Shown here: positions 1 through 42,730 of the stretch, one piece after another
Layout: every line of letters begins with the position of its first letter
How positions within the stretch are numbered: position 1 is the first letter of the stretch
Assembly: GCA_963807955.1 (NCBI GenBank)
Contig: CAWEDQ010000003.1
Span: 32,578 to 96,577 of the forward strand
Length of the DNA: 64,000 bases
Source of the DNA: Terriglobia bacterium
GTDB lineage: Bacteria > Acidobacteriota > Terriglobia > Terriglobales > Acidobacteriaceae
Direction: 5' to 3'
The notes under the pieces: generated by a model
The model's database searches: none
Seen by the model: the letters and a program-made list of their open reading frames with translations, nothing else
Told to the model about the DNA's origin: nothing
Made by a program: the position numbers and the translations under genes

Positions 1-549
1 GGCGACGACTCCAACGCAGTGTTCTACCTGCAAAAAGGCAAAGTAAAACTGGCCGTGATTTCCAAGCGGGGCAAGGAAGCCACGATTGCGCTGCTTAGCG
101 CCGGGGACTTTCTGGGCGAAGAATGCATTGCCGCGGTCCAACTGCATCGCAAAGCCACTGCCACTGCGTTAACTCCCGCCACCATTCTTAAGATTGAACG
201 CAAAGAGATGATACGCGTGCTCCGTCAGGAGCAGGCCTTCTCGGAAGTTTTTGTGGCTTTCATGCTGGCCCGTAATGCACGTATTCAGGAAGACCTGGTG
301 GACCAACTCTTCAACTCCAGTGAAAAACGCCTTGCCCGCGCCCTGCTCCTGCTGGCGCAGTTCGGCCAGGATGGCGTCCCGGAAACGGTGATCCCAAGGA
401 TCAGCCAGGAAACTCTTGCAGAGATGATCGGCACAACCCGCTCTCGCGTAAGCTTCTTCATGAATCGCTTTCGCAAACTGGGATTCATTGAATATAACGG
501 TCATTTAAGCGTACATAGCTCCCTGCTCAACGTGATCCTTCACGATTAG
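1..549 (+). CDS. Crp/Fnr-family transcriptional regulator (N-terminus outside window)
   Basis: Frame 1 is open from base 1 (GDDSNAVFYLQKGKVKL...). A cNMP-binding-type segment is followed by a C-terminal HTH, ISQETLAEMIGTTRSRVSFFMNRFRKLGFI, which is the Crp/Fnr layout. Confidence 0.85.
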   Translation, partial: GDDSNAVFYLQKGKVKLAVISKRGKEATIALLSAGDFLGEECIAAVQLHRKATATALTPATILKIERKEMIRVLRQEQAFSEVFVAFMLARNARIQEDLVDQLFNSSEKRLARALLLLAQFGQDGVPETVIPRISQETLAEMIGTTRSRVSFFMNRFRKLGFIEYNGHLSVHSSLLNVILHD

Positions 550-697: not shown

Positions 698-1099
698 ATG
701 TTAAGAGAATCGAAGCACGAAATTCTGATTGTGGATGATGACGCTGGCGTTCGAAATACCATGGGACTGTTGCTGCATGCGGCTGGCTATGACGTCAGCC
801 TGGCCATCAATGGCTCTGACGCGCTCTCGCAGTTGAAACGCCGCGTTCCGGCCATCGTGTTATCGGATCTGAACATGCCGGAGATGTCAGGGTTCGAATT
901 ACTCCCAGTGGTGCGCAGTCGCTTCCCACAGATTTCCCTCATTGCCATGAGCGGCGTCTATCAGACCGGCGACGCGGCGATTGGTGGCGTGATTGCGGAC
1001 GCATTCTTCGCCAAAGGCCAGGGCGGTCTACGGGTACTCTTACAGACAATCGCAAATCTAGTGGGCAACACGGAACCGCGCCCTGCTGCTGGCCACTGA
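698..1099 (+). CDS. single-domain response regulator (canonical CheY-like receiver)
   Basis: 133 aa. All canonical receiver positions are readable: ILIVDDD (acidic pair), IVLSDLNMPEMSG (acceptor Asp), LIAMSG (Ser/Thr), FFAKG (Lys). No output domain. Confidence 0.85.
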   Translation: MLRESKHEILIVDDDAGVRNTMGLLLHAAGYDVSLAINGSDALSQLKRRVPAIVLSDLNMPEMSGFELLPVVRSRFPQISLIAMSGVYQTGDAAIGGVIADAFFAKGQGGLRVLLQTIANLVGNTEPRPAAGH

Positions 1100-5045: not shown

Positions 5046-6821
5046 TTATTTTTTGCCTGACTTAGCCAGGACTCTCCTGATCTTCTTGGGCGACACCTTC
5101 AGCACTTTGGCCACCCGCGTGATCTTCTTCCCTTCTCTCTCCCAAACGCGGGCGATCACCACTTCAGCAAATTCCTCCGTCAGCGCCTGAAAAGTCTTCC
5201 CGTCCGTCACGCCCTGTGACCATGCCCGCAATTTAGGATCAATGCTGCCCCGCGCCATTACTTTTTGTTTCAAGAGGTTTAGCTCACGGAACACGTCTTC
5301 ATCTTCCGCCGATTTCATGAATGTGGCAGCCCGGTCAAGACACTGGCGTGCGTCTTCAAGGTCATGAATGGCGGGATGAGCGGCGGTGAGTCCCCGCCAT
5401 ATATAAGCACGCGCCAGCAAACGCTGATTCTGTGTGTGAGTGGCCGATTCCACGGCATCGCGGGCGTAGTCACGCGCCGCCTGCGCGTGCTCCCATGTGT
5501 TCGTGCTGCCCTCTATTTCCTCATCCAGTTGTGCGTGTTCAACTTTGCATTGCAGCAGGCGCGCCCGGGCCATCACAATGGAATCATTCTCTTCTTTTCC
5601 CACATCGTAAGCCCGCGCTCCTTCACCGGCAGCCTTGTCCAGCTCTCCGCTATCGAGATAGAGCAGGCCACGGTTTTCCAGAACGTTTCCTATTCCATGA
5701 TGGTGATGGTGGTGCGTGTAAATTGTTTCCGCCTGCTCAAGGTTGGCGAAGGCGCTGGCTCGCAGCTCTTCATACTGTTCCCGGCGTGTCTGCTGGCGTC
5801 CGCGTGATGCGGCGGGCTTGGCTGACTTGTTCTTGCGCTGCCGCTCCGCCTCGGAATCCATCTGTTCGACAATCTGCGCGGAAATCAGCCTCTGCACGTA
5901 AGCGATATTCGCCAGCGATCGCGCCAGATTGCGGTGCTGCGGATTGCGTTTCCTGAAATGTTCAACGGCCCTTGAGAAATACTTCAGTGCCTGGTTGTAC
6001 TGGCCCTGGCGGCGAATCATGCGTCCATGCGCGGAATAGATGTTGCCCAGCGTGATGTCATCGTCGGTGGCTGAAAGATCGGATTCAGCGCGATCAAGAA
6101 TGCGCGTGGCTTCCCTGAACTGGCCCTTTTGAAAGAACAGCCAGCTCTCCAGCACGCGCATCACGGAAGCCATCCTGGAATATCCCAGCACCTGCGCCAG
6201 CTCACGGCCCACTCCGGCACGCTTGAGCGCTTCGTCATACTCGCCCTTTTTGCGATGACAACGCGCATTCCAGAAATGGACAATCGCCACCACTTCCTTG
6301 TCTGGAATTTCCTCCTGCAGCAGCAGCACAAGATCAAAGTGGCGCAATGCGTCATCAGGATGGTCATGCAGGTGCGCCAGCAACCCTTCCGCGGTGCGGA
6401 GTTGGAGATAGTCTGCCACCGGAAGCCGGTTGCGCTGTTCGCGGGAGAAACGTTCCAGAAGTTGTTCCAGCAATTCAGCGCCTCTGTATCCTACGTCAAT
6501 CCATTGCGCCACCGTGCAAACCAGCGCCGCGGCATGCTCCTGCAATGGATCGAGAGAAGCGAGCGTGGCAGTATGGCGATCCAGCAGGGCGATACCCTGT
6601 GTGATCTGCCGGGCTACAAGGTGCTCGCGCAATGCGCCCAGCAGCTCGTCAACCGGCGACGCGGAAACCGCCGTATGCGCGGCAGCCCGCTTGCCGCCTG
6701 GTTTTCCTGCGGCTCTATTTGGAGCTCGTCTACTGTTGGAAACGGTAGCCACGGGTGAATTGTAGATGATAGATGACAGCCGGGTGAATGATGGAAGATT
6801 GACGATAGGAATAGACGTCAT
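5046..6821 (-). CDS. TPR-like repeat protein with C-terminal Fis-type HTH
   Basis: 591 aa. Helical TPR-like repeats in the central part. The C-terminus KITRVAKVLKVSPKKIRRVL resembles the Fis/NtrC-type HTH. Internal HHHHHH run. Its stop is 8 nt before the OCD-family gene start. Confidence 0.65.
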   Translation of the reverse strand: MTSIPIVNLPSFTRLSSIIYNSPVATVSNSRRAPNRAAGKPGGKRAAAHTAVSASPVDELLGALREHLVARQITQGIALLDRHTATLASLDPLQEHAAALVCTVAQWIDVGYRGAELLEQLLERFSREQRNRLPVADYLQLRTAEGLLAHLHDHPDDALRHFDLVLLLQEEIPDKEVVAIVHFWNARCHRKKGEYDEALKRAGVGRELAQVLGYSRMASVMRVLESWLFFQKGQFREATRILDRAESDLSATDDDITLGNIYSAHGRMIRRQGQYNQALKYFSRAVEHFRKRNPQHRNLARSLANIAYVQRLISAQIVEQMDSEAERQRKNKSAKPAASRGRQQTRREQYEELRASAFANLEQAETIYTHHHHHHGIGNVLENRGLLYLDSGELDKAAGEGARAYDVGKEENDSIVMARARLLQCKVEHAQLDEEIEGSTNTWEHAQAARDYARDAVESATHTQNQRLLARAYIWRGLTAAHPAIHDLEDARQCLDRAATFMKSAEDEDVFRELNLLKQKVMARGSIDPKLRAWSQGVTDGKTFQALTEEFAEVVIARVWEREGKKITRVAKVLKVSPKKIRRVLAKSGKK

Positions 6822-6950: not shown

Positions 6951-7169
6951 TTACGCTTTCGCTTTCTTCCATCTTGCCCAGCGGGCTTTGGCTGCGTCAG
7001 AAATCTTCTTGCGAGCAGCGGCTGACATGTGGCGTCTGCGGCCATTCCGCGGTCCCGCCTTCGCTGCGGCTTTCCCATAGCGGCGTGCGCCGCCTTGCAA
7101 GGCTGTTATCGCTTTCTTTATTTTTTCAAGCTGCTCTTCGAGTTGGGCGACAATCTCGGCTGTATCCAT
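6951..7169 (-). CDS. hypothetical small basic protein
   Basis: 72 aa. N-terminal coiled-coil-like segment, then a Lys/Arg/Ala-rich tail (SAAARKKISDAAKARWARWKKAKA). No family recognised. Confidence 0.45.
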   Translation of the reverse strand: MDTAEIVAQLEEQLEKIKKAITALQGGARRYGKAAAKAGPRNGRRRHMSAAARKKISDAAKARWARWKKAKA

Positions 7170-7356
7170 TTCTTCTCCGTTTTCTCTTTATGTCTCTTTG
7201 GGCTCCAGTTACTCGGGATTGTACATGAGAGCACATGAAGCCACCGCATAAGGGCCTCTATGTCGCAATACGAATGTTGATCATCTCAACCGTTGGGCCA
7301 AAAAGAGGAAGGAAGACATACGGATGGGTGCAATAAAGTTAGAGTCTTGTGCTGCT

Positions 7357-7707
7357 TTATGCCAATCGGCGTTTGGGTAACGCCTTGCTGACATCTTCGA
7401 GGAACATAGGAGCCGTACTGCAAGCAGGTGTGCACCCAATTGCGTCAACGTTAATGGCCGGCACAGCGAGACATAGAACCGGTAAGTCGGGCTGGGTTGA
7501 TTTAACTTCTGCAATCAATCGCTCTTGCTCTTCGGCCGGGACTGAATGACATATCACAAGAAGATCAATGGAATGTTGTCTAATTGCCCCCTGGGCCTCA
7601 GAACAGGAATACGCCTCTTCCACTTGATAGCCATGGCGTTGCAACAACAGCGTGCGGATGTGCATTAAATTTGAATCGTAGCCAAGCGACAATATGACAA
7701 ATCTCAT
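7357..7707 (-). CDS. receiver-like single-domain protein, acceptor Asp replaced by Cys (LLVICHSVP)
   Basis: 116 aa with a REC-like alternating beta/alpha pattern (RFVILS..., GYQVEEA, IDLLVICHSVPAEE, LPVLCL). No DD pair and no acceptor Asp. Start is 1 nt after the stop of ORF 7709-7921. Confidence 0.7.
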   Translation of the reverse strand: MRFVILSLGYDSNLMHIRTLLLQRHGYQVEEAYSCSEAQGAIRQHSIDLLVICHSVPAEEQERLIAEVKSTQPDLPVLCLAVPAINVDAIGCTPACSTAPMFLEDVSKALPKRRLA

Positions 7708-7708
7708 G

Positions 7709-7921
7709 CTACAACCTCGCCTGCTTCCGCTCTGAAGTTGAATTGTTTTCAGACTTACTCCGTAACTTGCATGTAGCGCGATGCGCCATCTCCATTAGAG
7801 CAATATTGAATTCAGACCGGCTCGATGCGACGAACCGAGTGCATTCAAGGCAATAAGACTCAATTAAGGCGTGGCTGTGATGAGAAGATACGTGCCAGAA
7901 TCGAGGAGGGGCTTGCTGCAT
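7709..7921 (-). CDS. small Cys/His protein, paralogue family member 1
   Basis: 70 aa. PPRFWHV...HALIESYCLECTRFVASS...MEMAHRATC. Clear paralogue of ORFs 9912-10106 and 32517-32720. Sits immediately upstream of a receiver-like gene. Confidence 0.6.
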   Translation of the reverse strand: MQQAPPRFWHVSSHHSHALIESYCLECTRFVASSRSEFNIALMEMAHRATCKLRSKSENNSTSERKQARL

Positions 7922-8175
7922 TTTGTGACCCCGTAATGAGCACTGGCGGGGGCGAGGCGGCAGTGCGAATTATTTGAAATTCTAGCGAAAAGGAAATCGA
8001 GAAATCTGTTCGGTACCAGACGGAACGTTCAAGATAAGGGAATTCTCACAAACTCGTAGCAGTCCCGCTGAGTCTGACCTCAGACAGACCTAAATGTTAA
8101 GTTGTGATAATTTGCAAGCAGGGTATCCCACGTCTAACATCCTCTGCCCCACGAGGTTGGACGTGCTAGAACACA

Positions 8176-8598
8176 ATGCCTGGCTCAAGAAGAATTCCTA
8201 ACGTGTTGGTTATCGAGCGCTCCCGGAAGGATGAGCGGGCATTGTCGCGAGTACTCCACTCTCTTCGGGTTGAGACTATTACAAGCTTCGCTGACAGCAA
8301 ACACGCGAGAAGCTTTCTCGAAGAGGCATTACATCGGAATAGAGAGCGCCCTGATCTCATCCTCATTGGCCTTGATTCCACGGTTGAGGGTGTTTTAGAA
8401 GATTTACTTTTTTATAAGACGCATCCTAAATTGCAAGAATGCAGGATCCTGGTTTGGACGCGGATGGAACAAACCGAATCGGAATTGCACAGGCTTTTCG
8501 GCGTCCAGGTTGTATTGAAGCAGCAGGGAGAGGCAAGGCTGTTTGAGGTTTTATCCAAAGTGGCCACCCCATTCACACAAGCCGCAGGGGCACAATAA
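8176..8598 (+). CDS. receiver-like single-domain protein, degenerate (Gly at acceptor position)
   Basis: 140 aa. VLVIERS, RPDLILIGLDSTVEG, CRILVWT, VVLKQ follow the receiver beta1/beta3/beta4/beta5 pattern, but the acidic pocket is incomplete. Confidence 0.65.
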   Translation: MPGSRRIPNVLVIERSRKDERALSRVLHSLRVETITSFADSKHARSFLEEALHRNRERPDLILIGLDSTVEGVLEDLLFYKTHPKLQECRILVWTRMEQTESELHRLFGVQVVLKQQGEARLFEVLSKVATPFTQAAGAQ

Positions 8599-8611
8599 GG
8601 TCTTATTCTGC

Positions 8612-8733
8612 CAACCTCAAAGAACTCCATACGACACAGTTCAGTCACAGTCCTTCGAATCAAGCAGTAATAACGGCACTTCCTCCTTGACCCAATCGTC
8701 CGGATTCGGGCATACAGCCCATTTTGAAGCCCC
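8612..8733. repeat. ~120-nt duplicated non-coding element, copy 1
   Basis: CAACCTCAAAGAACTCCATACGACACAGTTCAGTCACAGTCCTTCGAATCAA ... ATCGTCCGGATTCGGGCATAC aligns with 10164-10280. The flanks match well by eye and the middle ~30 nt has diverged. Confidence 0.8.
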
Positions 8734-8810
8734 TGAAAAATATTGAGTTTCCAAGGGGTTATTTTTTGGTTGGATTGTGCTTGTGGTGCTCGATGGTGGG
8801 CTTTGGTGCC

Positions 8811-8836
8811 CGATTAGACACAGTTCAGACACAGCC
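8811..8836. repeat. partial third copy of the CACAGT-N5-CACAG core
   Basis: CGATTAGACACAGTTCAGACACAGCC matches the core of the 8612 and 10164 elements. Confidence 0.6.
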
Positions 8837-9121
8837 ACCTGCTTGATGAGCACTAACCTGCGTGTCAGTGCGAGATTCCCTATAAGCGTAACCACATTTG
8901 GAATGCTCTGTCTGTTCTGTGCCAGACGTAGCGACGAATATTGTTCCTTTACAAGTTTCCTTATAAGCGCAAGGAATTGGGACGTCAGTACAAAATAAAC
9001 TGTCACAAACATCCGAATTCTGTCTTAAAATTTTCAGCACAGACCCACTATTCTGAAGTGCCTCCTCCTGTGAATGCTTCCCGGCACGGTGCGGCGTTTT
9101 AAAAGGCAGATGTGAACACAA

Positions 9122-9496
9122 ATGGCCGTCGGCTATTCAATTTTGAGCATTGCTCGCTACGAAGGGCTGCAAAAAACACGAACGCTGATTTTAAGTCAAG
9201 CTGGCTACGATGTGTGCGAAGCAATCACTGATCAAGAGGCAATCAGATTTCTGGAAGGTTCCATCGCCTTCGACCTCGTTCTTATCTGTCACTCGGTTCC
9301 CGAACCTAGCAGATTGCTCCTTGCGGCAAAGATCAAAGCCTCGCATCCCGAGATGCCAATCTTAATGGTAGTTGAGGGGTATCAAACTACCGCGGCTCAG
9401 GTGGACAGCTTCGTGCAAGGACTTGAATCGCCTACGGCTTTGCTCGTTAAAGTTGGTGCTCTGATGACGAAAAGGGTGAAACCAGCAGGTCTGTAA
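9122..9496 (+). CDS. receiver-like single-domain protein, acceptor Asp replaced by Cys (LVLICHSVP)
   Basis: 124 aa. GYDVCEA, FDLVLICHSVPEP, MPILMVV. Paralogue of 7357-7707 with the same Cys-His substitution. Confidence 0.7.
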   Translation: MAVGYSILSIARYEGLQKTRTLILSQAGYDVCEAITDQEAIRFLEGSIAFDLVLICHSVPEPSRLLLAAKIKASHPEMPILMVVEGYQTTAAQVDSFVQGLESPTALLVKVGALMTKRVKPAGL

Positions 9497-9548
9497 AAAA
9501 GCCCTTGCGATTGATGACGGAGAAGTTTTCCTCGCATCACACCTACAC

Positions 9549-9851
9549 ATGGGGAATCAGAAGTCTCGCCTCCAGGTGGTACATTCGCGGTCGGTTACGG
9601 GACCCATCTCAGAATTGTATGAAACCGGGACAGTTATCCCGGTGACGGGCATCTATAGGGTGGTGCATTCTGCCCACCGTTTACCCCACGAAGCCCTCAT
9701 AATCCAGGGGCAGCGATTCCCAAAATGCCAAAAGTGTGGGGATGTTGTTTTTTTTGAACTGATTCATCCCGCCGCTGATTTGTTTAGCCACATTACGTAT
9801 TCCATTTGTGAAATCCCAGTAATCGAGGAAGACGAAGACACTGCGGCCTGA
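9549..9851 (+). CDS. hypothetical small His/Cys protein
   Basis: 100 aa. GIYRVVHSAHRLPHEALIIQGQRFPKCQKCG motif and an acidic tail. Same strand as the flanking genes, with gaps of 52 and 60 nt. Confidence 0.5.
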   Translation: MGNQKSRLQVVHSRSVTGPISELYETGTVIPVTGIYRVVHSAHRLPHEALIIQGQRFPKCQKCGDVVFFELIHPAADLFSHITYSICEIPVIEEDEDTAA

Positions 9852-9911
9852 TCGGACGAGAGTGCGAACAATTCAACATCCTGGGTGGACGATTTCTTCA
9901 TCTAAAACCAG

Positions 9912-10106
9912 ATGCCGCAAGAGCCGCCGAAGTTCTATAAATTCAACTGCGTCTACGATCAGAGAATCACAGAGGTGTATTGCCTCCGATGTTCAAAGTT
10001 TCTAGCGGCAAGCCCGCATCGCCTGATCTTATCGATAGTGGAGTCTCTTCACCATTGCCCAAAGAAATCTCAACCTTCGTTTTGGAGTAGCCAAACCCGG
10101 TCTTAA
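9912..10106 (+). CDS. small Cys/His protein, paralogue family member 2
   Basis: 64 aa. PPKFYKF...RITEVYCLRCSKFLAAS...VESLHHC aligns with 7709-7921 and 32517-32720. Confidence 0.6.
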   Translation: MPQEPPKFYKFNCVYDQRITEVYCLRCSKFLAASPHRLILSIVESLHHCPKKSQPSFWSSQTRS

Positions 10107-10163: not shown

Positions 10164-10280
10164 CAACCTGAAAGAACTCGATAAGGCACAGTTGAGACAC
10201 AGTCTCCCGAATCAAACCGGAAAAACGGGGCGTATCCGTTTTAAGCCACTCGTCCGATTCGGACTACCTCATTTGCCCCC
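10164..10280. repeat. ~120-nt duplicated non-coding element, copy 2 (upstream of aceA)
   Basis: CAACCTGAAAGAACTCGATAAGGCACAGTTGAGACACAGTCTCCCGAATCAA ... CTCGTCCGATTCGGACTAC. Internal perfect hairpin AAAACGG-N7-CCGTTTT. Outer CCGAATC/GATTCGG pairing. Confidence 0.8.
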
Positions 10281-32516: not shown

Positions 32517-32720
32517 ATGTTTACCAGCCAATCTTTCCATTTTATACACCAGGTCTATCCAGGGAACCACGCAATCACAGAGTCGCGTTGTTCCCAATGT
32601 TGTGTTCTGGTTGCAGCAGGAGCTGAGGATAAGTACCTGGCCATTGCCGAAGCCGTCCACAAATGCAGGATTATCGCCGCCCCGCGTCTTACCCGGGAGG
32701 ATTTCACAAGCTTGCACTAA
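32517..32720 (+). CDS. small Cys/His protein, paralogue family member 3
   Basis: From M37 of ORF 32409-32720, 67 aa: ...NHAITESRCSQCCVLVAAG...AEAVHKC aligns with 7709-7921 and 9912-10106. SD-like AGAGG upstream. Confidence 0.5.
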   Translation: MFTSQSFHFIHQVYPGNHAITESRCSQCCVLVAAGAEDKYLAIAEAVHKCRIIAAPRLTREDFTSLH

Positions 32721-40127: not shown

Positions 40128-40224
40128 GAAGCCGTGAGAATATCACAAGAAGCCGCCCTTGGTTGCTCCGGCGCAACGCCCTCTGTATAGTGGCCTTTCC
40201 ACACGCTCGATTACGAGGAGGCTC

Positions 40225-42237
40225 ATGTTCAATAGCTTATCCGGAAGCGCGAAGCTCATCTCCACCTTTCTTCTCTTCACAGTTTTATCGCCTCTTGCTG
40301 TCGCGCAAACGAATGCGGCACAGGATTCCGCTTCCGTTAAGAAGCCGTCGCATGAGGCGCATGAAGCCTTGCTGCATACGCTCTTCTCTGCGCGAGGTTT
40401 CGGCCAGGTTTCGATCTCTCCGGACGGGAAACGCGTTGCGTGGGTGGAGGCGACAGCGGGAAAGTCATCTTTGTTCGTTTCGTCCACCGCTCCCGGCGAC
40501 AAGCCTCGTCGCATCACGATCGGCATGGTGATCGGACAACATTCAGAAGACTCTCCGGCATGGTCGCCTGACAGCCAGCGCCTTGCTTTCCTCTCAGACG
40601 TAGCAAAGCCCGGACAATCACAGCTCTACGTCACCACCCTGGGCGCGAGTCCCGCCCGCAAAGTGACAAACGTTAAAGGATTGCTTGCCGCACCGGCATG
40701 GTCGCCGGATGGAAAGCGCCTGGGCATTCTCTTAACGGAAAATGCGAACCGCGCCGCCGGACCGCTGGTGGCTGAAGCCGCGCAGACCGGTGTGATCAAA
40801 GATGCAGTCACCGAACAACGGCTCGCAGTGGTCGATGCCGCCGGTGGCAAACTGAATCAGATTTCTCCGCCGGACATGTATGTGTACGAATTTGACTGGT
40901 CGCCTGACAGCACGCGCTTTGTCACCACCGCCGCACATGGCAACGGTGACAACAACTGGTATATCGCGGAAATCTACACGGTGAGCGCAAGCGGCGGCGC
41001 CATGAAATCGATTTACAAACCGACGCTTCAGGTGGCCAACCCCGCATGGTCGCCGGATGGTAAATCAGTTGCCTTCATCTCTGGACTGATGAGTGATGAA
41101 CCTTCAGTTGGTGGTGACGTTTACGTTGTACCGGCCGAGGGCGGCGAAGCACGCAACATTACGCCGGAAATGAAAGCCTCAGCCAGTTGGCTCACGTGGG
41201 CCGGTCCGCAAACCATCCTCTTTGGTGAGGACGTGGATGGAGAAACCGGCGTCGCCACCGTGGATGTTACTGGTGGAAAGATTGAAACGCTGTGGCACGG
41301 CCGGGAACTGATCTCGGCCGATGGGTCAGGTTCGGTCGCGAAAGACGGAAAAATGTCCGCCGTTGTGCGCCAGTCACTCAGCCAGCCGCCGGAAGTATGG
41401 GCTGGGCCCATCGGGCAGTGGAAACAAATTACCTCAGCGAATCGCGATCTCAAGCCCGTGTGGGGGGAAGCAAAAAGCCTGCATTGGTCCAATGATGGTT
41501 TCAACCTTCAAGGCTGGCTGCTCTATCCGCAGAATTTTGATCCCAGTAAGCATTACCCCATGGTTGTTTCTGTGCATGGTGGACCTGGCGCCATGCTCCA
41601 TTCATCGTGGCCGGGCCCGCACAGCTTCGCTGTAGCGCTCTCCGCGGCAGGATATTTCGTTTTCTTCCCCAACCCTCGCGGAAGTTTCGGCCAGGGTGAG
41701 GCCTTCACCCGCGCCAACGTAAAAGATTTTGGCTACGGAGACTTCCGCGACATTATGACGGGCGTGGACCAGGTGCTCAAACAAGCACCCGTCGACGAAC
41801 ACCGGCTGGGCATCACCGGGTGGAGCTATGGCGGTTACATGACCATGTGGGCCGTCACGCAGACTGATCGATTTGCGGCAGCCGTGGCCGGAGCCGGCCT
41901 GGCGAACTTTCAAAGCTACTATGGCCAGAACCAGATTGATCAGTGGATGATCCCCTTTTTCGGCGCGTCAGTCTATGACGATCCCCAGGTTTACGCGCGC
42001 AGCTCACCCATTACGTTCATCAAGAAAGCCAGGACGCCAACACTTGTCGTGGTTGGTGATAGTGACGGCGAATGTCCAACGCCGCAATCGTACGAATTCT
42101 GGCATGCTCTGAAGACACTCAACGTTCCTACCGAGCTTGTAGTGTATGAGCACGAAGGACACAGTTTCGCCGATCCCAGACACCAGCGCGACGTTATTGA
42201 ACGCGTGATGGAGTGGTTTGATGGCCGGCTCAAATAA
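40225..42237 (+). CDS. S9-family serine peptidase (prolyl oligopeptidase / acylaminoacyl peptidase-like) with an N-terminal beta-propeller
   Basis: The ATG at 40225 follows GAGGAGG and gives a signal peptide. Repeated WSPDG(K) propeller motifs. C-terminal GWSYGG nucleophile elbow, GDSDGECP (Asp) and HEGHSF (His). Confidence 0.9.
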   Translation: MFNSLSGSAKLISTFLLFTVLSPLAVAQTNAAQDSASVKKPSHEAHEALLHTLFSARGFGQVSISPDGKRVAWVEATAGKSSLFVSSTAPGDKPRRITIGMVIGQHSEDSPAWSPDSQRLAFLSDVAKPGQSQLYVTTLGASPARKVTNVKGLLAAPAWSPDGKRLGILLTENANRAAGPLVAEAAQTGVIKDAVTEQRLAVVDAAGGKLNQISPPDMYVYEFDWSPDSTRFVTTAAHGNGDNNWYIAEIYTVSASGGAMKSIYKPTLQVANPAWSPDGKSVAFISGLMSDEPSVGGDVYVVPAEGGEARNITPEMKASASWLTWAGPQTILFGEDVDGETGVATVDVTGGKIETLWHGRELISADGSGSVAKDGKMSAVVRQSLSQPPEVWAGPIGQWKQITSANRDLKPVWGEAKSLHWSNDGFNLQGWLLYPQNFDPSKHYPMVVSVHGGPGAMLHSSWPGPHSFAVALSAAGYFVFFPNPRGSFGQGEAFTRANVKDFGYGDFRDIMTGVDQVLKQAPVDEHRLGITGWSYGGYMTMWAVTQTDRFAAAVAGAGLANFQSYYGQNQIDQWMIPFFGASVYDDPQVYARSSPITFIKKARTPTLVVVGDSDGECPTPQSYEFWHALKTLNVPTELVVYEHEGHSFADPRHQRDVIERVMEWFDGRLK

Positions 42238-42355: not shown

Positions 42356-42730
42356 ATGTGCCCGGCGCATTATAAGCCCAGTATCCTTCTTGTGAACGGC
42401 ACCGCAACCGTACAGAACCTGCGCCTGCTCATGCTCCGCATGCGAGGTTATACGGTCCATGGGGCACTCAGTCTCAGCGATGCGCGCCGCCTTCTGACAG
42501 CACAATCTTACGAACTGGTGATCGTGGACGTTGGGCATTACGCCGGGCCCGGGCTGGCGTTCTGCGAAGAGGTGCGGACATCGCATCCGCACGTGAAAGT
42601 AATGCTCCAGGTGGAAGATAACCTGCTTCCCTTTAAGCATGAGTGCCCGGATAAAGTGATACCCAAGCAGGAAGGGCCTCAAGCTTTTGTGAGTGAAGTG
42701 GAAAAAGTGCTGGCGACCGGCGCAAGCTGA
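42356..42730 (+). CDS. receiver-like single-domain protein (partly degenerate)
   Basis: From the ATG at 42356, 124 aa: SILLVNGT (no acidic pair), GYTVHGA, YELVIVDVGH (Asp present), VKVMLQV. Resembles the 7357 and 9122 proteins. Confidence 0.55.
   Translation: MCPAHYKPSILLVNGTATVQNLRLLMLRMRGYTVHGALSLSDARRLLTAQSYELVIVDVGHYAGPGLAFCEEVRTSHPHVKVMLQVEDNLLPFKHECPDKVIPKQEGPQAFVSEVEKVLATGAS

What the first reader, a model, noticed from the sequence alone, without database searches (positions are those of the whole stretch)
7357..9496. Cluster of stand-alone receiver-like proteins with a substituted phospho-acceptor (LVICHSVP), and no kinase or output domain nearby
Three REC-like ORFs lie within 2.2 kb. 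I aligned them by eye to the CheY pattern: beta1 acidic pair, beta3 DLhhhD..MP, beta4 Ser/Thr, beta5 Lys. 7357-7707 reads IDLLVICHSVPAE and 9122-9496 reads FDLVLICHSVPEP, so Cys-His occupies the acceptor-Asp position, and both lack the DD pair. 8176-8598 reads PDLILIGLDSTVEG, with Gly at that position. The RR at 698-1099 in the same window has every canonical residue, so the contrast is real. The same Cys-His substitution in two diverged paralogues argues for a conserved non-phosphorylatable receiver fold, possibly thiol- or metal-responsive, rather than decay. A fourth relative at 42356-42730 keeps the Asp.
Basis: partly seen in the sequence, partly recalled or inferred. Interest (0 to 1): 0.7.

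Follow-up and report, generated by a model that had tools for sequence, protein, structure and literature searches.

The report
Cysteine-for-aspartate pseudo-receiver family in Terriglobia
Two of the three small genes belong to a large, unannotated soil-Acidobacteria family of receiver-like proteins that have lost every residue needed for phosphorylation and carry a conserved Cys-His-Ser motif instead; this is a new branch of the known "aspartate-less receiver" class, and its function is still unknown.

Summary
7357-7707(-) ("recA") and 9122-9496(+) ("recC") are paralogues with a receiver fold (AF2 pLDDT 84; TM about 0.8 to PhoB, MicA and PorX receivers). Cys sits at the phospho-Asp column and His at D+1. 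All five phosphotransfer residues are gone and helix alpha4 is missing.

They are not decaying. A profile search finds 504 clusters (E<=1e-10). Among the 150 best-scoring proteins (191 matched domains), 117 domains carry the motif. There His(D+1) is invariant, Ser/Thr(D+2) 93%, an alpha1 Arg 99%, and the acceptor is Cys 91% or Gly/Ser 9%. Orthologues show dN/dS of 0.11-0.35.

Most members are about 125-aa single-domain proteins. Some are fused to a canonical receiver. Both window genes sit beside small Cys/His genes. No kinase lies within about 7-10 kb.

ORF 8176-8598 is different: an ORFan with weak Rcp1-like similarity and an ambiguous acceptor (Gly65 or Asp67). It lies in a 907-bp segment absent from the sister genome.

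Cys-substituted aspartate-less receivers were already noted (Maule 2015). This family scores below Pfam's threshold, so it would not have been counted there. The thiol or metal-sensor idea is untested, and the recurrent Gly/Ser replacements weaken it.

The parts
7357..7707 (-). recA: 116-aa single-domain pseudo-receiver. Cys53-His54-Ser55 occupy D, D+1 and D+2. DD is Gly-Tyr; T and K are lost.
   Evidence: dN/dS against the sister genome is 0.35.
7709..7921 (-). smallA: 70-aa CxxC-x19-H-x3-C protein. Its stop lies 1 nt before the recA start, so the two probably form one operon.
   Evidence: dN/dS is 0.23.
7931..8838 (.). 907-bp segment absent from the sister genome MFD05841. Both junctions carry ATGAGCACT. 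It contains ORF B.
   Evidence: blastn and junction alignment.
8176..8598 (+). ORF B: 140-aa ORFan with weak similarity to Rcp1/RcpA-type single-domain receivers. The acceptor column is Gly65 by phmmer or Asp67 by MAFFT. It is not a member of the CH[ST] family.
9122..9496 (+). recC: 124-aa single-domain pseudo-receiver with Cys56-His57-Ser58. DD is Ala-Arg, T is Val84, K is Ser103 (Pro104 kept). Helix alpha4 is absent in the model.
   Evidence: Orthologue dN/dS is 0.11-0.29.
9549..9851 (+). p100: 100-aa His-rich protein with a CxxC motif and no known family. It adjoins recC orthologues in three different gene arrangements.
   Evidence: dN/dS is 0.17.
9912..10106 (+). smallC: 64-aa paralogue of smallA (CxxC-x19-HHC), last gene of the recC-p100-smallC row.
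7170..10106 (.). Low-GC island holding all of the above: GC 0.46-0.50 and GC3 about 0.5, against 0.56-0.59 and 0.63 in the flanking genes.
42356..42730 (+). Distant relative. It is a pseudo-receiver that keeps the acceptor Asp and Lys but lacks DD and T. Its GC matches the host genome.
698..1099 (+). Canonical single-domain response regulator with an S-G-x-Y motif after beta4. It is the nearest canonical relative of the family in this window.
32517..32720 (+). Third member of the small CxxC..H.C family in the window, with no pseudo-receiver beside it.
8612..8676 (+). 65-nt direct repeat, with its second copy at 10164-10228 (80% identical). Each copy lies just 3' of a gene.

Best explanation
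recA and recC are members of a large, mainly single-domain family of aspartate-less pseudo-receivers. The family is so far seen in Terriglobia (Acidobacteriota) genomes and in metagenomes of unknown taxonomy, many of them from soil.

Shown:
- They keep the receiver (beta-alpha)5 scaffold but lack helix alpha4.
- All five residues that carry out His-to-Asp phosphotransfer are replaced.
- The former active-site loops carry a new conserved set: a small residue at D (Cys, sometimes Gly or Ser), an invariant His at D+1, Ser/Thr at D+2, usually Asp after the DD positions, and an invariant Arg in alpha1.
- The genes evolve under purifying selection.

Inferred:
- They cannot be phosphorylated on Asp, so they act as phosphorylation-independent protein-binding modules.
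- Their nearest canonical relatives are alpha4-less, S-G-Y ('FATGUY'-like) receiver-only proteins, and some members are fused in front of such a canonical receiver. They therefore most likely dock onto partners of two-component or phosphorelay networks as adaptors, decoys or modulators.
- In this locus the likely direct partners are the co-transcribed small Cys/His (probably zinc-binding) proteins: smallA for recA, and p100 and smallC for recC.
- The remodelled His/Ser/Arg(+Cys) pocket is the probable regulatory site (ligand, metal or oxidation). Which of these applies is not known.

ORF B is a separate, probably recent and possibly non-functional, Rcp1-like receiver remnant.
For: Fold:
- The AF2 model of recC has pLDDT 83.6 and pTM 0.80, with strands and helices in receiver order and residues 85-95 as a loop.
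- Foldseek against PDB gives TM 0.74-0.83 to canonical receivers, 478 hits at E<=1e-3.

Acceptor column: fixed by phmmer alignments to 5t3y, PorX and PhoP and by MAFFT with canonical regulators.

Family size and signature:
- 504 clusters at E<=1e-10.
- In the 117 motif-bearing domains (among 191 matched domains of the top 150 proteins): D = C106/G9/S2; D+1 = H 117/117; D+2 = S75/T34; alpha1 Arg 110/111; DD = [G68/S36]-x; K = G/S/T with Pro kept in 72 of 88.
- 104 of 116 proteins are <=200 aa.

Selection: dN/dS is 0.11-0.29 for recC orthologues, 0.35 for recA, 0.23 for smallA and 0.17 for p100.

Link to two-component signalling:
- 12 of the 116 proteins exceed 200 aa. Eight of them join an N-terminal [C/S]HS pseudo-receiver to a second receiver domain with Asp (six) or Glu (two) at the acceptor. 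The three read in full (P0031, P0045, P0089) have DDD, D, S and K in that domain.
- One of these lies next to a KaiC homologue and a HisKA kinase.
- Canonical domains recovered by the same profile carry S/T-G-Y after beta4.
- CpdR is among the best NCBIfam matches of recC.
- Missing alpha4 and the FATGUY motif are described for receiver-only phosphorelay intermediates (PMC9981736).

Partner genes:
- The smallA stop and recA start are 1 nt apart.
- The small CxxC..H.C family is real: 80 clusters, with C24, C27 and H47 conserved and an AF2 pLDDT of 82.
- It lies within about 1 kb of a CH[ST] receiver in the window (twice), in the syntenic L001, and in L003 and L027.
- p100 adjoins recC orthologues in the window and L001, in L010 and L011, and in L016.
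Against: - No binding, ligand or phenotype data exist. The partner assignment rests on gene adjacency only, and adjacency is not universal. L004, L010, L018 and other receiver loci lack the small gene. L021-L026, L025 and window 32517 have the small gene without the receiver.
- The KaiC and kinase neighbourhood is a single case; the other fusion contigs were too short to read.
- The FATGUY resemblance is partial. recC has G-Y but no S/T, and the T column in the family is variable.
- Taxonomy is known for only a few members; most hits are unnamed metagenome proteins.
- Locally the module looks dispensable: recC is frameshifted in the sister genome.
Confidence: 0.6

Rival explanations
1. Thiol switch. 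The acceptor-site Cys is the sensor. Oxidation, persulfidation, an intermolecular disulfide or metal binding at Cys-His takes the place of phosphorylation and toggles the receiver fold, possibly using the Cys/His residues of the co-transcribed small proteins.
For: - Cys is at D in 106 of 117 family domains and is the only conserved Cys.
- It sits where phosphorylation normally triggers the conformational switch.
- The neighbours smallA, smallC and p100 are rich in Cys and His.
- Maule et al. proposed redox sensing for Cys-ALRs, and redox-controlled atypical regulators exist, such as RitR and HP1021 (PMC4395418, PMC12632262).
Against: - Cys was replaced by Gly or Ser in about 9% of members, in at least three unrelated branches, while His, Ser/Thr and Arg20 were kept. 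The family's conserved function therefore does not require a thiol.
- Cys, Gly and Ser share small size rather than chemistry.
- The conserved Cys and His residues of the small proteins look like a self-contained CCH(C/H) zinc site.
- No experiment bears on the idea.
Confidence: 0.2
2. Decay. The cluster is a graveyard of duplicated response-regulator genes that lost their kinase and are drifting toward pseudogenes.
For: - Pfam scores are below threshold.
- The genes sit in a low-GC island with variable content.
- recC is frameshifted in the sister genome.
- recA and smallA are 54-59% identical where the flanks are 96-97% identical.
- A truncated smallA-like remnant is present in L008.
- ORF B is an ORFan.
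Against: - For recA and recC: hundreds of diverged clusters keep the same non-canonical residues.
- dN/dS is 0.11-0.35.
- The fold model is confident.
- Drift would not fix His, Ser/Thr and Arg.
- Decay remains a live option only for ORF B, and for the MFD05841 copy of recC.
Confidence: 0.07
3. Alternative phospho-acceptor. The family is still a phosphotransfer module, but uses His57 (or Cys56 or Ser58) rather than Asp as the acceptor.
For: - His at D+1 is invariant and Ser/Thr at D+2 is nearly so.
- Some members are fused to a canonical receiver, and one lies next to a kinase.
- Maule et al. speculate about other modifications at the former Asp site (PMC4395418).
Against: - The metal-binding acidic pair, the Thr and the Lys that stabilise the transition state are all absent.
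- No precedent exists for such chemistry in a receiver fold.
- Most members have no kinase nearby.
Confidence: 0.05

Closest known systems
Aspartate-less receivers with Cys at the acceptor ('Cys-ALRs'), Maule et al. 2015 (PMC4395418); pseudo-receivers as defined in PMC12632262
   Same: Both are receiver homologues with Cys in place of the phospho-Asp and are presumed not to be Asp-phosphorylated. Acidobacteria were already noted as rich in ALRs.
   Different: - The 26 Cys-ALRs of 2015 came from Pfam 26 and clustered by attached output domains (HTH, GGDEF, DsbA, kinase).
- This family is mostly single-domain.
- It falls below the PF00072 gathering score, so it would not have been counted there.
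- It has its own invariant His(D+1)-Ser/Thr(D+2) and alpha1 Arg signature.
- It lacks alpha4 and pairs with small Cys/His proteins.
FATGUY-type receiver-only proteins (Sma0114, SdrG, MrrA, CpdR, CckA-Rec; PMC9981736)
   Same: Both are small receiver-only proteins with a missing or degenerate alpha4 and a G-Y/F element just after beta4. CpdR is among the best NCBIfam matches. Canonical domains retrieved by the family profile carry S/T-G-Y.
   Different: FATGUY proteins have an intact phosphorylation site and shuttle phosphoryl groups. The family here has none of the five catalytic residues, and its motif is only partly kept.
Non-phosphorylatable single or accessory pseudo-receivers that work by binding: FrzS receiver, KaiA N-domain, CikA PsR, ShkA Rec1 (PMC1974792, PMC12632262, PMC7010744)
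   Same: In each case a receiver fold is used as a phosphorylation-independent interaction or ligand-binding module. One fused family member lies next to a KaiC homologue and a kinase.
   Different: No specific sequence relationship was found. The 50 best Foldseek hits listed are all canonical receivers. The ligands and partners of those proteins (quinone, c-di-GMP, KaiB/KaiC, SgmX) are not implied here.
RitR and HP1021-type redox-regulated atypical response regulators
   Same: Both are aspartate-less or atypical regulators in which a Cys has been implicated in control.
   Different: In those proteins the Cys lies in the linker or the alpha1-beta2 loop, not at the acceptor, and they carry DNA-binding domains. 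The proteins here have no output domain.
Rcp1/RcpA cyanobacterial phytochrome-associated single-domain regulators (for ORF B only)
   Same: They are the best PDB sequence matches of ORF B (E 3e-4 to 9e-4). Size and the aligned T and K positions agree.
   Different: ORF B lacks the second acidic residue, probably lacks the acceptor Asp, has no phytochrome or kinase neighbour, and has no orthologues.

Membership tests
Receiver domain (CheY-like, PF00072) | (beta-alpha)5 receiver fold | tested here: met
   recC AF2 model has pLDDT 83.6. Foldseek TM is 0.74-0.83 to PhoB, MicA, PorX and others. Helix alpha4 is missing. recA was not modelled, but it is 39% identical to recC.
Receiver domain (CheY-like, PF00072) | Score at or above Pfam's gathering threshold (30.2 bits) | tested here: not met
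   recA 21.7 bits, recC 20.1 bits, ORF B no hit, 42356 protein 27.4 bits.
Receiver domain (CheY-like, PF00072) | Five catalytic residues: DD, D, T/S and K | tested here: not met
   recC has A11-R12, C56, V84 and S103 (or G100). recA has G9-Y10, C53, Ala, and no Lys.
Pseudo-receiver / aspartate-less receiver (ALR) | Detectable receiver homology combined with absence of the acceptor Asp | tested here: met
   Met for recA and recC. For ORF B it is inconclusive: Gly65, Asp67.
Cys-ALR subset (Maule 2015) | Cys at the phospho-Asp column | tested here: met
   for the two window proteins. 106 of the 117 motif-bearing family domains analysed have Cys there.
FATGUY receiver-only class | PFxFATG[G/Y] or FxSGY motif at beta4 and the following loop | tested here: inconclusive
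   recC reads PILMVVEGYQ and many relatives read LMLYNGYDPT. G-Y/F is frequent, but the S/T position is variable.
FATGUY receiver-only class | Intact phosphorylation site with an acidic Mg2+ pocket | tested here: not met
   The family is therefore not a member; at most it descends from this class.
RitR-type redox ALR regulators | DNA-binding output domain and a regulatory Cys in the linker | tested here: not met
   The proteins are 116 and 124 aa, single-domain, with no output domain.
KaiA / CikA clock pseudo-receivers | Association with KaiB/KaiC and specific similarity to the KaiA-N or CikA pseudo-receiver | not tested
   The only lead is one fused family member next to a KaiC homologue and a kinase. 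No KaiA or CikA entry is among the 50 Foldseek hits listed. No kai gene was found among the window genes examined.
Rcp1/RcpA-type single-domain regulators (ORF B) | Significant sequence similarity and an intact active site | tested here: inconclusive
   E 3e-4 to 9e-4 against PDB but no Pfam hit. DD reads E-R and the acceptor is ambiguous.

The most novel reading that the evidence does not exclude
The CH[ST] pseudo-receiver and its co-transcribed small Cys/His protein (smallA-type zinc knuckle, or p100) form a kinase-independent two-protein signalling module typical of Terriglobia. The remodelled His/Ser/Arg(+Cys) pocket senses a ligand, metal or oxidant and controls binding of the partner. 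The module feeds into phosphorelays through receiver-to-receiver contacts, as the pseudo-receiver-plus-receiver fusions suggest.
Probability: 0.15. Interest if true: 0.7.

Novelty: new variant of a known kind. Interest (0 to 1): 0.45.

Why it matters
How pseudo-receivers are switched on and off is an acknowledged open question (PMC12632262). Acidobacteria are among the phyla richest in aspartate-less receivers, yet almost nothing there has been studied.

This family has several features that make it a workable model:
- It is large and under purifying selection.
- It is invisible to Pfam's threshold.
- It has a sharply defined replacement signature in the dead active site.
- It has candidate partner genes next door.

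It could be used to ask what a receiver fold does once phosphorylation is abandoned. It also shows that censuses of Cys-substituted receivers based on Pfam membership undercount them. The practical importance is moderate, because no phenotype or pathway is attached yet.

Tried and rejected
- Alignment-based scans of genome contigs failed twice for lack of a conserved stretch. A narrower alignment worked, but it found only five loci in genomes and eight in metagenomes, mostly close orthologues.
- hhalign of ORF B against the family profile found nothing, and BLASTP of B against recC found nothing. B was therefore removed from the family.
- NCBIfam, PADLOC and PHROGs gave no specific family for any island gene; only generic receiver hits appeared. 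A defence-island or phage reading of the low-GC island was dropped.
- The small protein's model has no PDB fold match at E<=1e-3, and p100 has no PDB sequence match.
- Rfam and tRNA scans of the island found nothing.
- Look-ups of further fusion proteins to test the KaiC link returned contigs too short to read.
- Cluster look-up gave no organism names.
- Literature searches found no paper on this family beyond the general ALR and PsR work.
- A Cys-based phosphatase-like reading (LMW-PTP or ArsC type) was considered and rejected, because there is no Cys or CX5R in the beta1-alpha1 loop.
Full report
**What is in the sequence**

The three ORFs exist as described. I call them recA (7357-7707, minus strand, 116 aa), ORF B (8176-8598, plus strand, 140 aa) and recC (9122-9496, plus strand, 124 aa).

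recA and recC are paralogues: 39% identity over 80 residues, E 3e-15. ORF B is related to neither, by BLASTP or by profile comparison.

Two small Cys/His ORFs are also paralogues (E 4e-11). These are smallA (7709-7921, minus strand) and smallC (9912-10106, plus strand). A 100-aa His- and CxxC-containing ORF, p100 (9549-9851, plus strand), lies between recC and smallC.

The smallA stop and the recA start are 1 nt apart. The locus therefore reads as two divergent rows, smallA-recA and recC-p100-smallC, with ORF B between them.

**The acceptor column**

PF00072 matches recA and recC only below its gathering score: 21.7 and 20.1 bits against 30.2. It does not match ORF B at all.

phmmer against PDB sequences gives explicit alignments:
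- recC 'dlvlichsvp' pairs with 'dlvltdqnmp' (5t3y) and 'divfldenmp' (PorX).
- recA 'dllvichsvp' pairs with PhoP 'diaivdlglp'.

Cys is therefore the phospho-Asp column, His is D+1, Ser is D+2, and the usual D+4 Pro is kept. A MAFFT alignment with canonical regulators agrees.

The AF2 model of recC, built from a nine-sequence alignment, has pLDDT 83.6 and pTM 0.80. Its elements are beta1 6-10, alpha1 14-26, beta2 30-34, alpha2 37-45, beta3 52-55, alpha3 61-74, beta4 80-84, beta5 96-99 and alpha5 104-116. Residues 85-95 form a loop where alpha4 should be.

Foldseek against PDB returns canonical receivers at TM 0.74-0.83, with 478 hits at E<=1e-3.

With the strands placed, the catalytic residues read as follows:
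- recC: DD = Ala11-Arg12, D = Cys56, T = Val84, K = Ser103 (Pro104 kept).
- recA: Gly9-Tyr10, Cys53, Ala, and no Lys.

All five residues of the phosphotransfer site are absent.

**ORF B**

Its only relative among 5.8 billion proteins is itself.

phmmer against PDB finds the single-domain regulators Rcp1 and RcpA at E 3e-4 to 9e-4 over 90-117 residues. In that alignment DD reads Glu-Arg, Gly65 sits at the acceptor, and T and K are aligned. MAFFT instead puts Asp67 in the acceptor column with a two-residue bulge. The spacing to the following Gly favours Gly65, but the point is open.

ORF B lies in a 907-bp segment (7931-8838) that is absent from the closest genome. That segment is bounded by ATGAGCACT on both sides. 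I treat ORF B as a separate, lineage-specific and possibly non-functional receiver remnant.

**Where the window comes from, and local variability**

The closest genome is a Terriglobia MAG, MFD05841.bin.1.15, with a 4.0-Mb contig. It is syntenic over window positions 1-19.5 kb.

In that genome:
- recA and smallA are intact but only 59% and 54% identical. The flanking TPR and p72 genes are 96-97% identical.
- The recC orthologue carries an 11-bp deletion that shifts the frame after residue 78.
- ORF B is absent.

The whole stretch 7170-10106 has GC 0.46-0.50 and GC3 about 0.5. The flanking genes have 0.56-0.59 and 0.63. The locus is thus a compositionally distinct, fast-changing island.

**The family**

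A profile built from recC, its orthologues and recA was searched against 1.84 billion representative proteins. It finds 504 clusters at E<=1e-10.

I aligned the best 150 proteins to the profile. They give 191 matched domains, and 117 of those have x-His (x = Cys, Gly or Ser) at D and D+1. In those 117:

| Position | Residues |
|---|---|
| D | Cys 106, Gly 9, Ser 2 |
| D+1 | His 117/117 |
| D+2 | Ser 75, Thr 34 |
| DD | [Gly 68 / Ser 36]-x |
| Position after DD | Asp 86 |
| alpha1 Arg (recC Arg20) | 110/111 |
| K | Gly/Ser/Thr |
| K+1 | Pro 72 of 88 |

- 104 of the 116 proteins are <=200 aa; the median length over the 117 domains is 128 aa.
- The beta4-to-beta5 segment is short throughout, which agrees with the missing alpha4.
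- The Gly and Ser variants fall in at least three unrelated branches and keep His, Ser/Thr and Arg.

The invariant element is therefore His, and the acceptor position tolerates any small residue.

Genome hits with organism names are Terriglobia, Terriglobales and Edaphobacter. Most other members are unnamed metagenome proteins.

**Selection**

Nei-Gojobori estimates from my own script give:

| Gene or comparison | dN/dS |
|---|---|
| recC orthologues (window, L008, L010, L011, L016), pairwise | 0.11-0.29 |
| recA | 0.35 |
| smallA | 0.23 |
| p100 | 0.17 |
| smallC | 0.53 |
| TPR gene (flank) | 0.065 |

The last five values compare the window with MFD05841. The genes are constrained but evolve faster than their surroundings. 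This rules out simple decay for recA and recC.

**Context and links to signalling**

No histidine kinase or output domain is present in the Pfam list of the syntenic locus, which covers about 7 kb upstream and 10 kb downstream. None was found in eight large ORFs elsewhere in the window.

Twelve of the 116 motif-bearing proteins are longer than 200 aa. Eight of them join an N-terminal [C/S]HS pseudo-receiver to a second receiver domain with Asp (six) or Glu (two) at the acceptor. The three I read in full, P0031, P0045 and P0089, have DDD, D, S and K in that second domain. The fusion P0031 is followed by a double-domain KaiC homologue (PF06745, 4e-72) and a HisKA/HATPase kinase. This is one case only, because the other fusion contigs were too short.

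Canonical receivers recovered by the same profile, including window 698-1099 and two regulators just upstream of the CHS gene in L003, carry an S/T-G-(x)-Y element after beta4. CpdR is among recC's best NCBIfam matches. This resembles the alpha4-less 'FATGUY' receiver-only phosphorelay intermediates described in PMC9981736. I count that as a lead on ancestry, not as membership, because those proteins have an intact active site.

Crp/FNR-type genes recur near family members: window 19-549, L003, L015, L017 and L021-L026. I did not test whether this exceeds chance.

**The small proteins**

The smallA/smallC family has at least 80 clusters of 60-70-aa proteins. Phe8, Cys27, Ala32 and His47 are invariant, and Glu21 and Cys24 nearly so.

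AF2 (pLDDT 81.6) gives three short strands and a helix. The CxxC lies at the beta2-beta3 turn and His at the end of the helix, a zinc-knuckle-plus-helix layout. There is no PDB fold match at E<=1e-3.

A member lies within about 1 kb of a CH[ST] receiver in the window (twice), in the syntenic locus L001, and in L003 and L027. It is not found there in L021-L026, L025 or at window 32517. Many receiver loci also lack it. The association is frequent but facultative.

p100 adjoins recC orthologues in three different arrangements: the window and L001, L010 and L011, and L016. It has no Pfam, NCBIfam or PDB match.

**Interpretation**

Shown: recA and recC belong to a large, constrained family of receiver-fold proteins that have lost the entire phosphotransfer apparatus and alpha4, and have gained a different conserved set of residues in the same loops.

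Inferred:
- They are not phosphorylated on Asp and act by binding partners.
- The fusions and the nearest canonical relatives place them in two-component or phosphorelay networks.
- The co-transcribed Cys/His proteins are the best partner candidates in this locus.
- The His/Ser/Arg(+Cys) pocket is the likely regulatory site.

It cannot be the family's common mechanism, because Gly and Ser variants keep everything else.

**Comparison with what is known**

Receivers that lack the Asp are a recognised class, called ALR or pseudo-receiver (PMC4395418, PMC12632262).
- Maule et al. singled out 26 'Cys-ALRs' from Pfam 26, mostly with output domains, and speculated on redox sensing.
- They also noted that Acidobacteria are rich in ALRs.

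The family here meets the defining features of an ALR and of a Cys-ALR. It scores below the PF00072 threshold, and only 2 of 12 close homologues carry a precomputed Pfam hit, so it would not have been included in that census.

It differs from the described Cys-ALRs in four ways: the single-domain architecture, the invariant His-Ser/Thr and Arg, the missing alpha4, and the pairing with small Cys/His proteins. I found no paper on it. I rate it a new variant of a known kind.

**Verdict**

- Interest is moderate: a clean, sizeable and unannotated pseudo-receiver family with candidate partners, but no demonstrated function and a precedent for the central idea.

Noticed in passing
window 7170-10106: The whole receiver and small-gene cluster is a low-GC island (GC 0.46-0.50, GC3 about 0.5) between host-like genes (GC 0.56-0.59, GC3 0.63). 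Its content differs between two closely related genomes.
   Followed up: partly
window 7931-8838: A 907-bp segment carrying ORF B is absent from the sister genome, and both junctions carry ATGAGCACT. This fits either an insertion with a duplicated target or a deletion between short repeats.
   Followed up: partly
window 8612-8676 and 10164-10228; 18-nt core also at 8817-8834: A 65-nt direct repeat (80% identical) lies just 3' of ORF B and just 3' of smallC. Its core GACACAGTTSAGWCACAG occurs three times in the island, against 0.01 expected in the window. There is no Rfam match.
   Followed up: partly
L001 10001-10364 (= L002 6001-6364): The recC orthologue of MAG MFD05841 has an 11-bp deletion after codon 78, while the downstream frame still encodes the conserved C-terminus. 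It is either a recent pseudogene or an assembly error.
   Followed up: partly
window 5046-6821 (-): A 591-aa TPR protein carries a natural run of six His residues (IYTHHHHHHGIGN) and a C-terminal Fis-like helix-turn-helix. It lies directly beside the island and is 96% identical in the sister genome.
   Followed up: no
window 6951-7169 (-); L016 5180-5401 (-): A 72-aa Lys/Arg-rich protein (p72) is 97% identical in the sister genome. A homologue again lies beside p100 and recC in an unrelated contig, so it may belong to the module.
   Followed up: partly
window 32517-32720 (+); L025 5001-5204: A third member of the small CxxC..H.C family sits next to a prephenate dehydrogenase / Ser-hydrolase gene in both the window and another genome, with no pseudo-receiver nearby.
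   Followed up: partly
L015 4769-8512: A fusion of a CHS pseudo-receiver and a canonical receiver is followed by a double-domain KaiC homologue and a HisKA/HATPase kinase. This is a possible KaiC-linked two-component module in a non-cyanobacterium.
   Followed up: partly
window 19-549; L003 3149-4015; L015 1415-3648; L017 802-1428; L021-L026: Crp/FNR-type regulator genes (cNMP_binding plus HTH_Crp_2) recur within a few kb of CH[ST] receivers and small CxxC genes. Whether this exceeds chance was not tested.
   Followed up: no
L008 3764-3970 (-) (also L007, L009): An ORF begins like smallA (MQQTPPRFWHGLVPRNG...) and then diverges. It looks like a truncated remnant upstream of an intact recC orthologue, which indicates turnover of the module's parts.
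   Followed up: no
window 42356-42730 (+): This receiver-like protein keeps the acceptor Asp and Lys but has Asn-Gly for DD and no Thr. It follows an S9 peptidase gene (40159-42237), not a kinase.
   Followed up: partly
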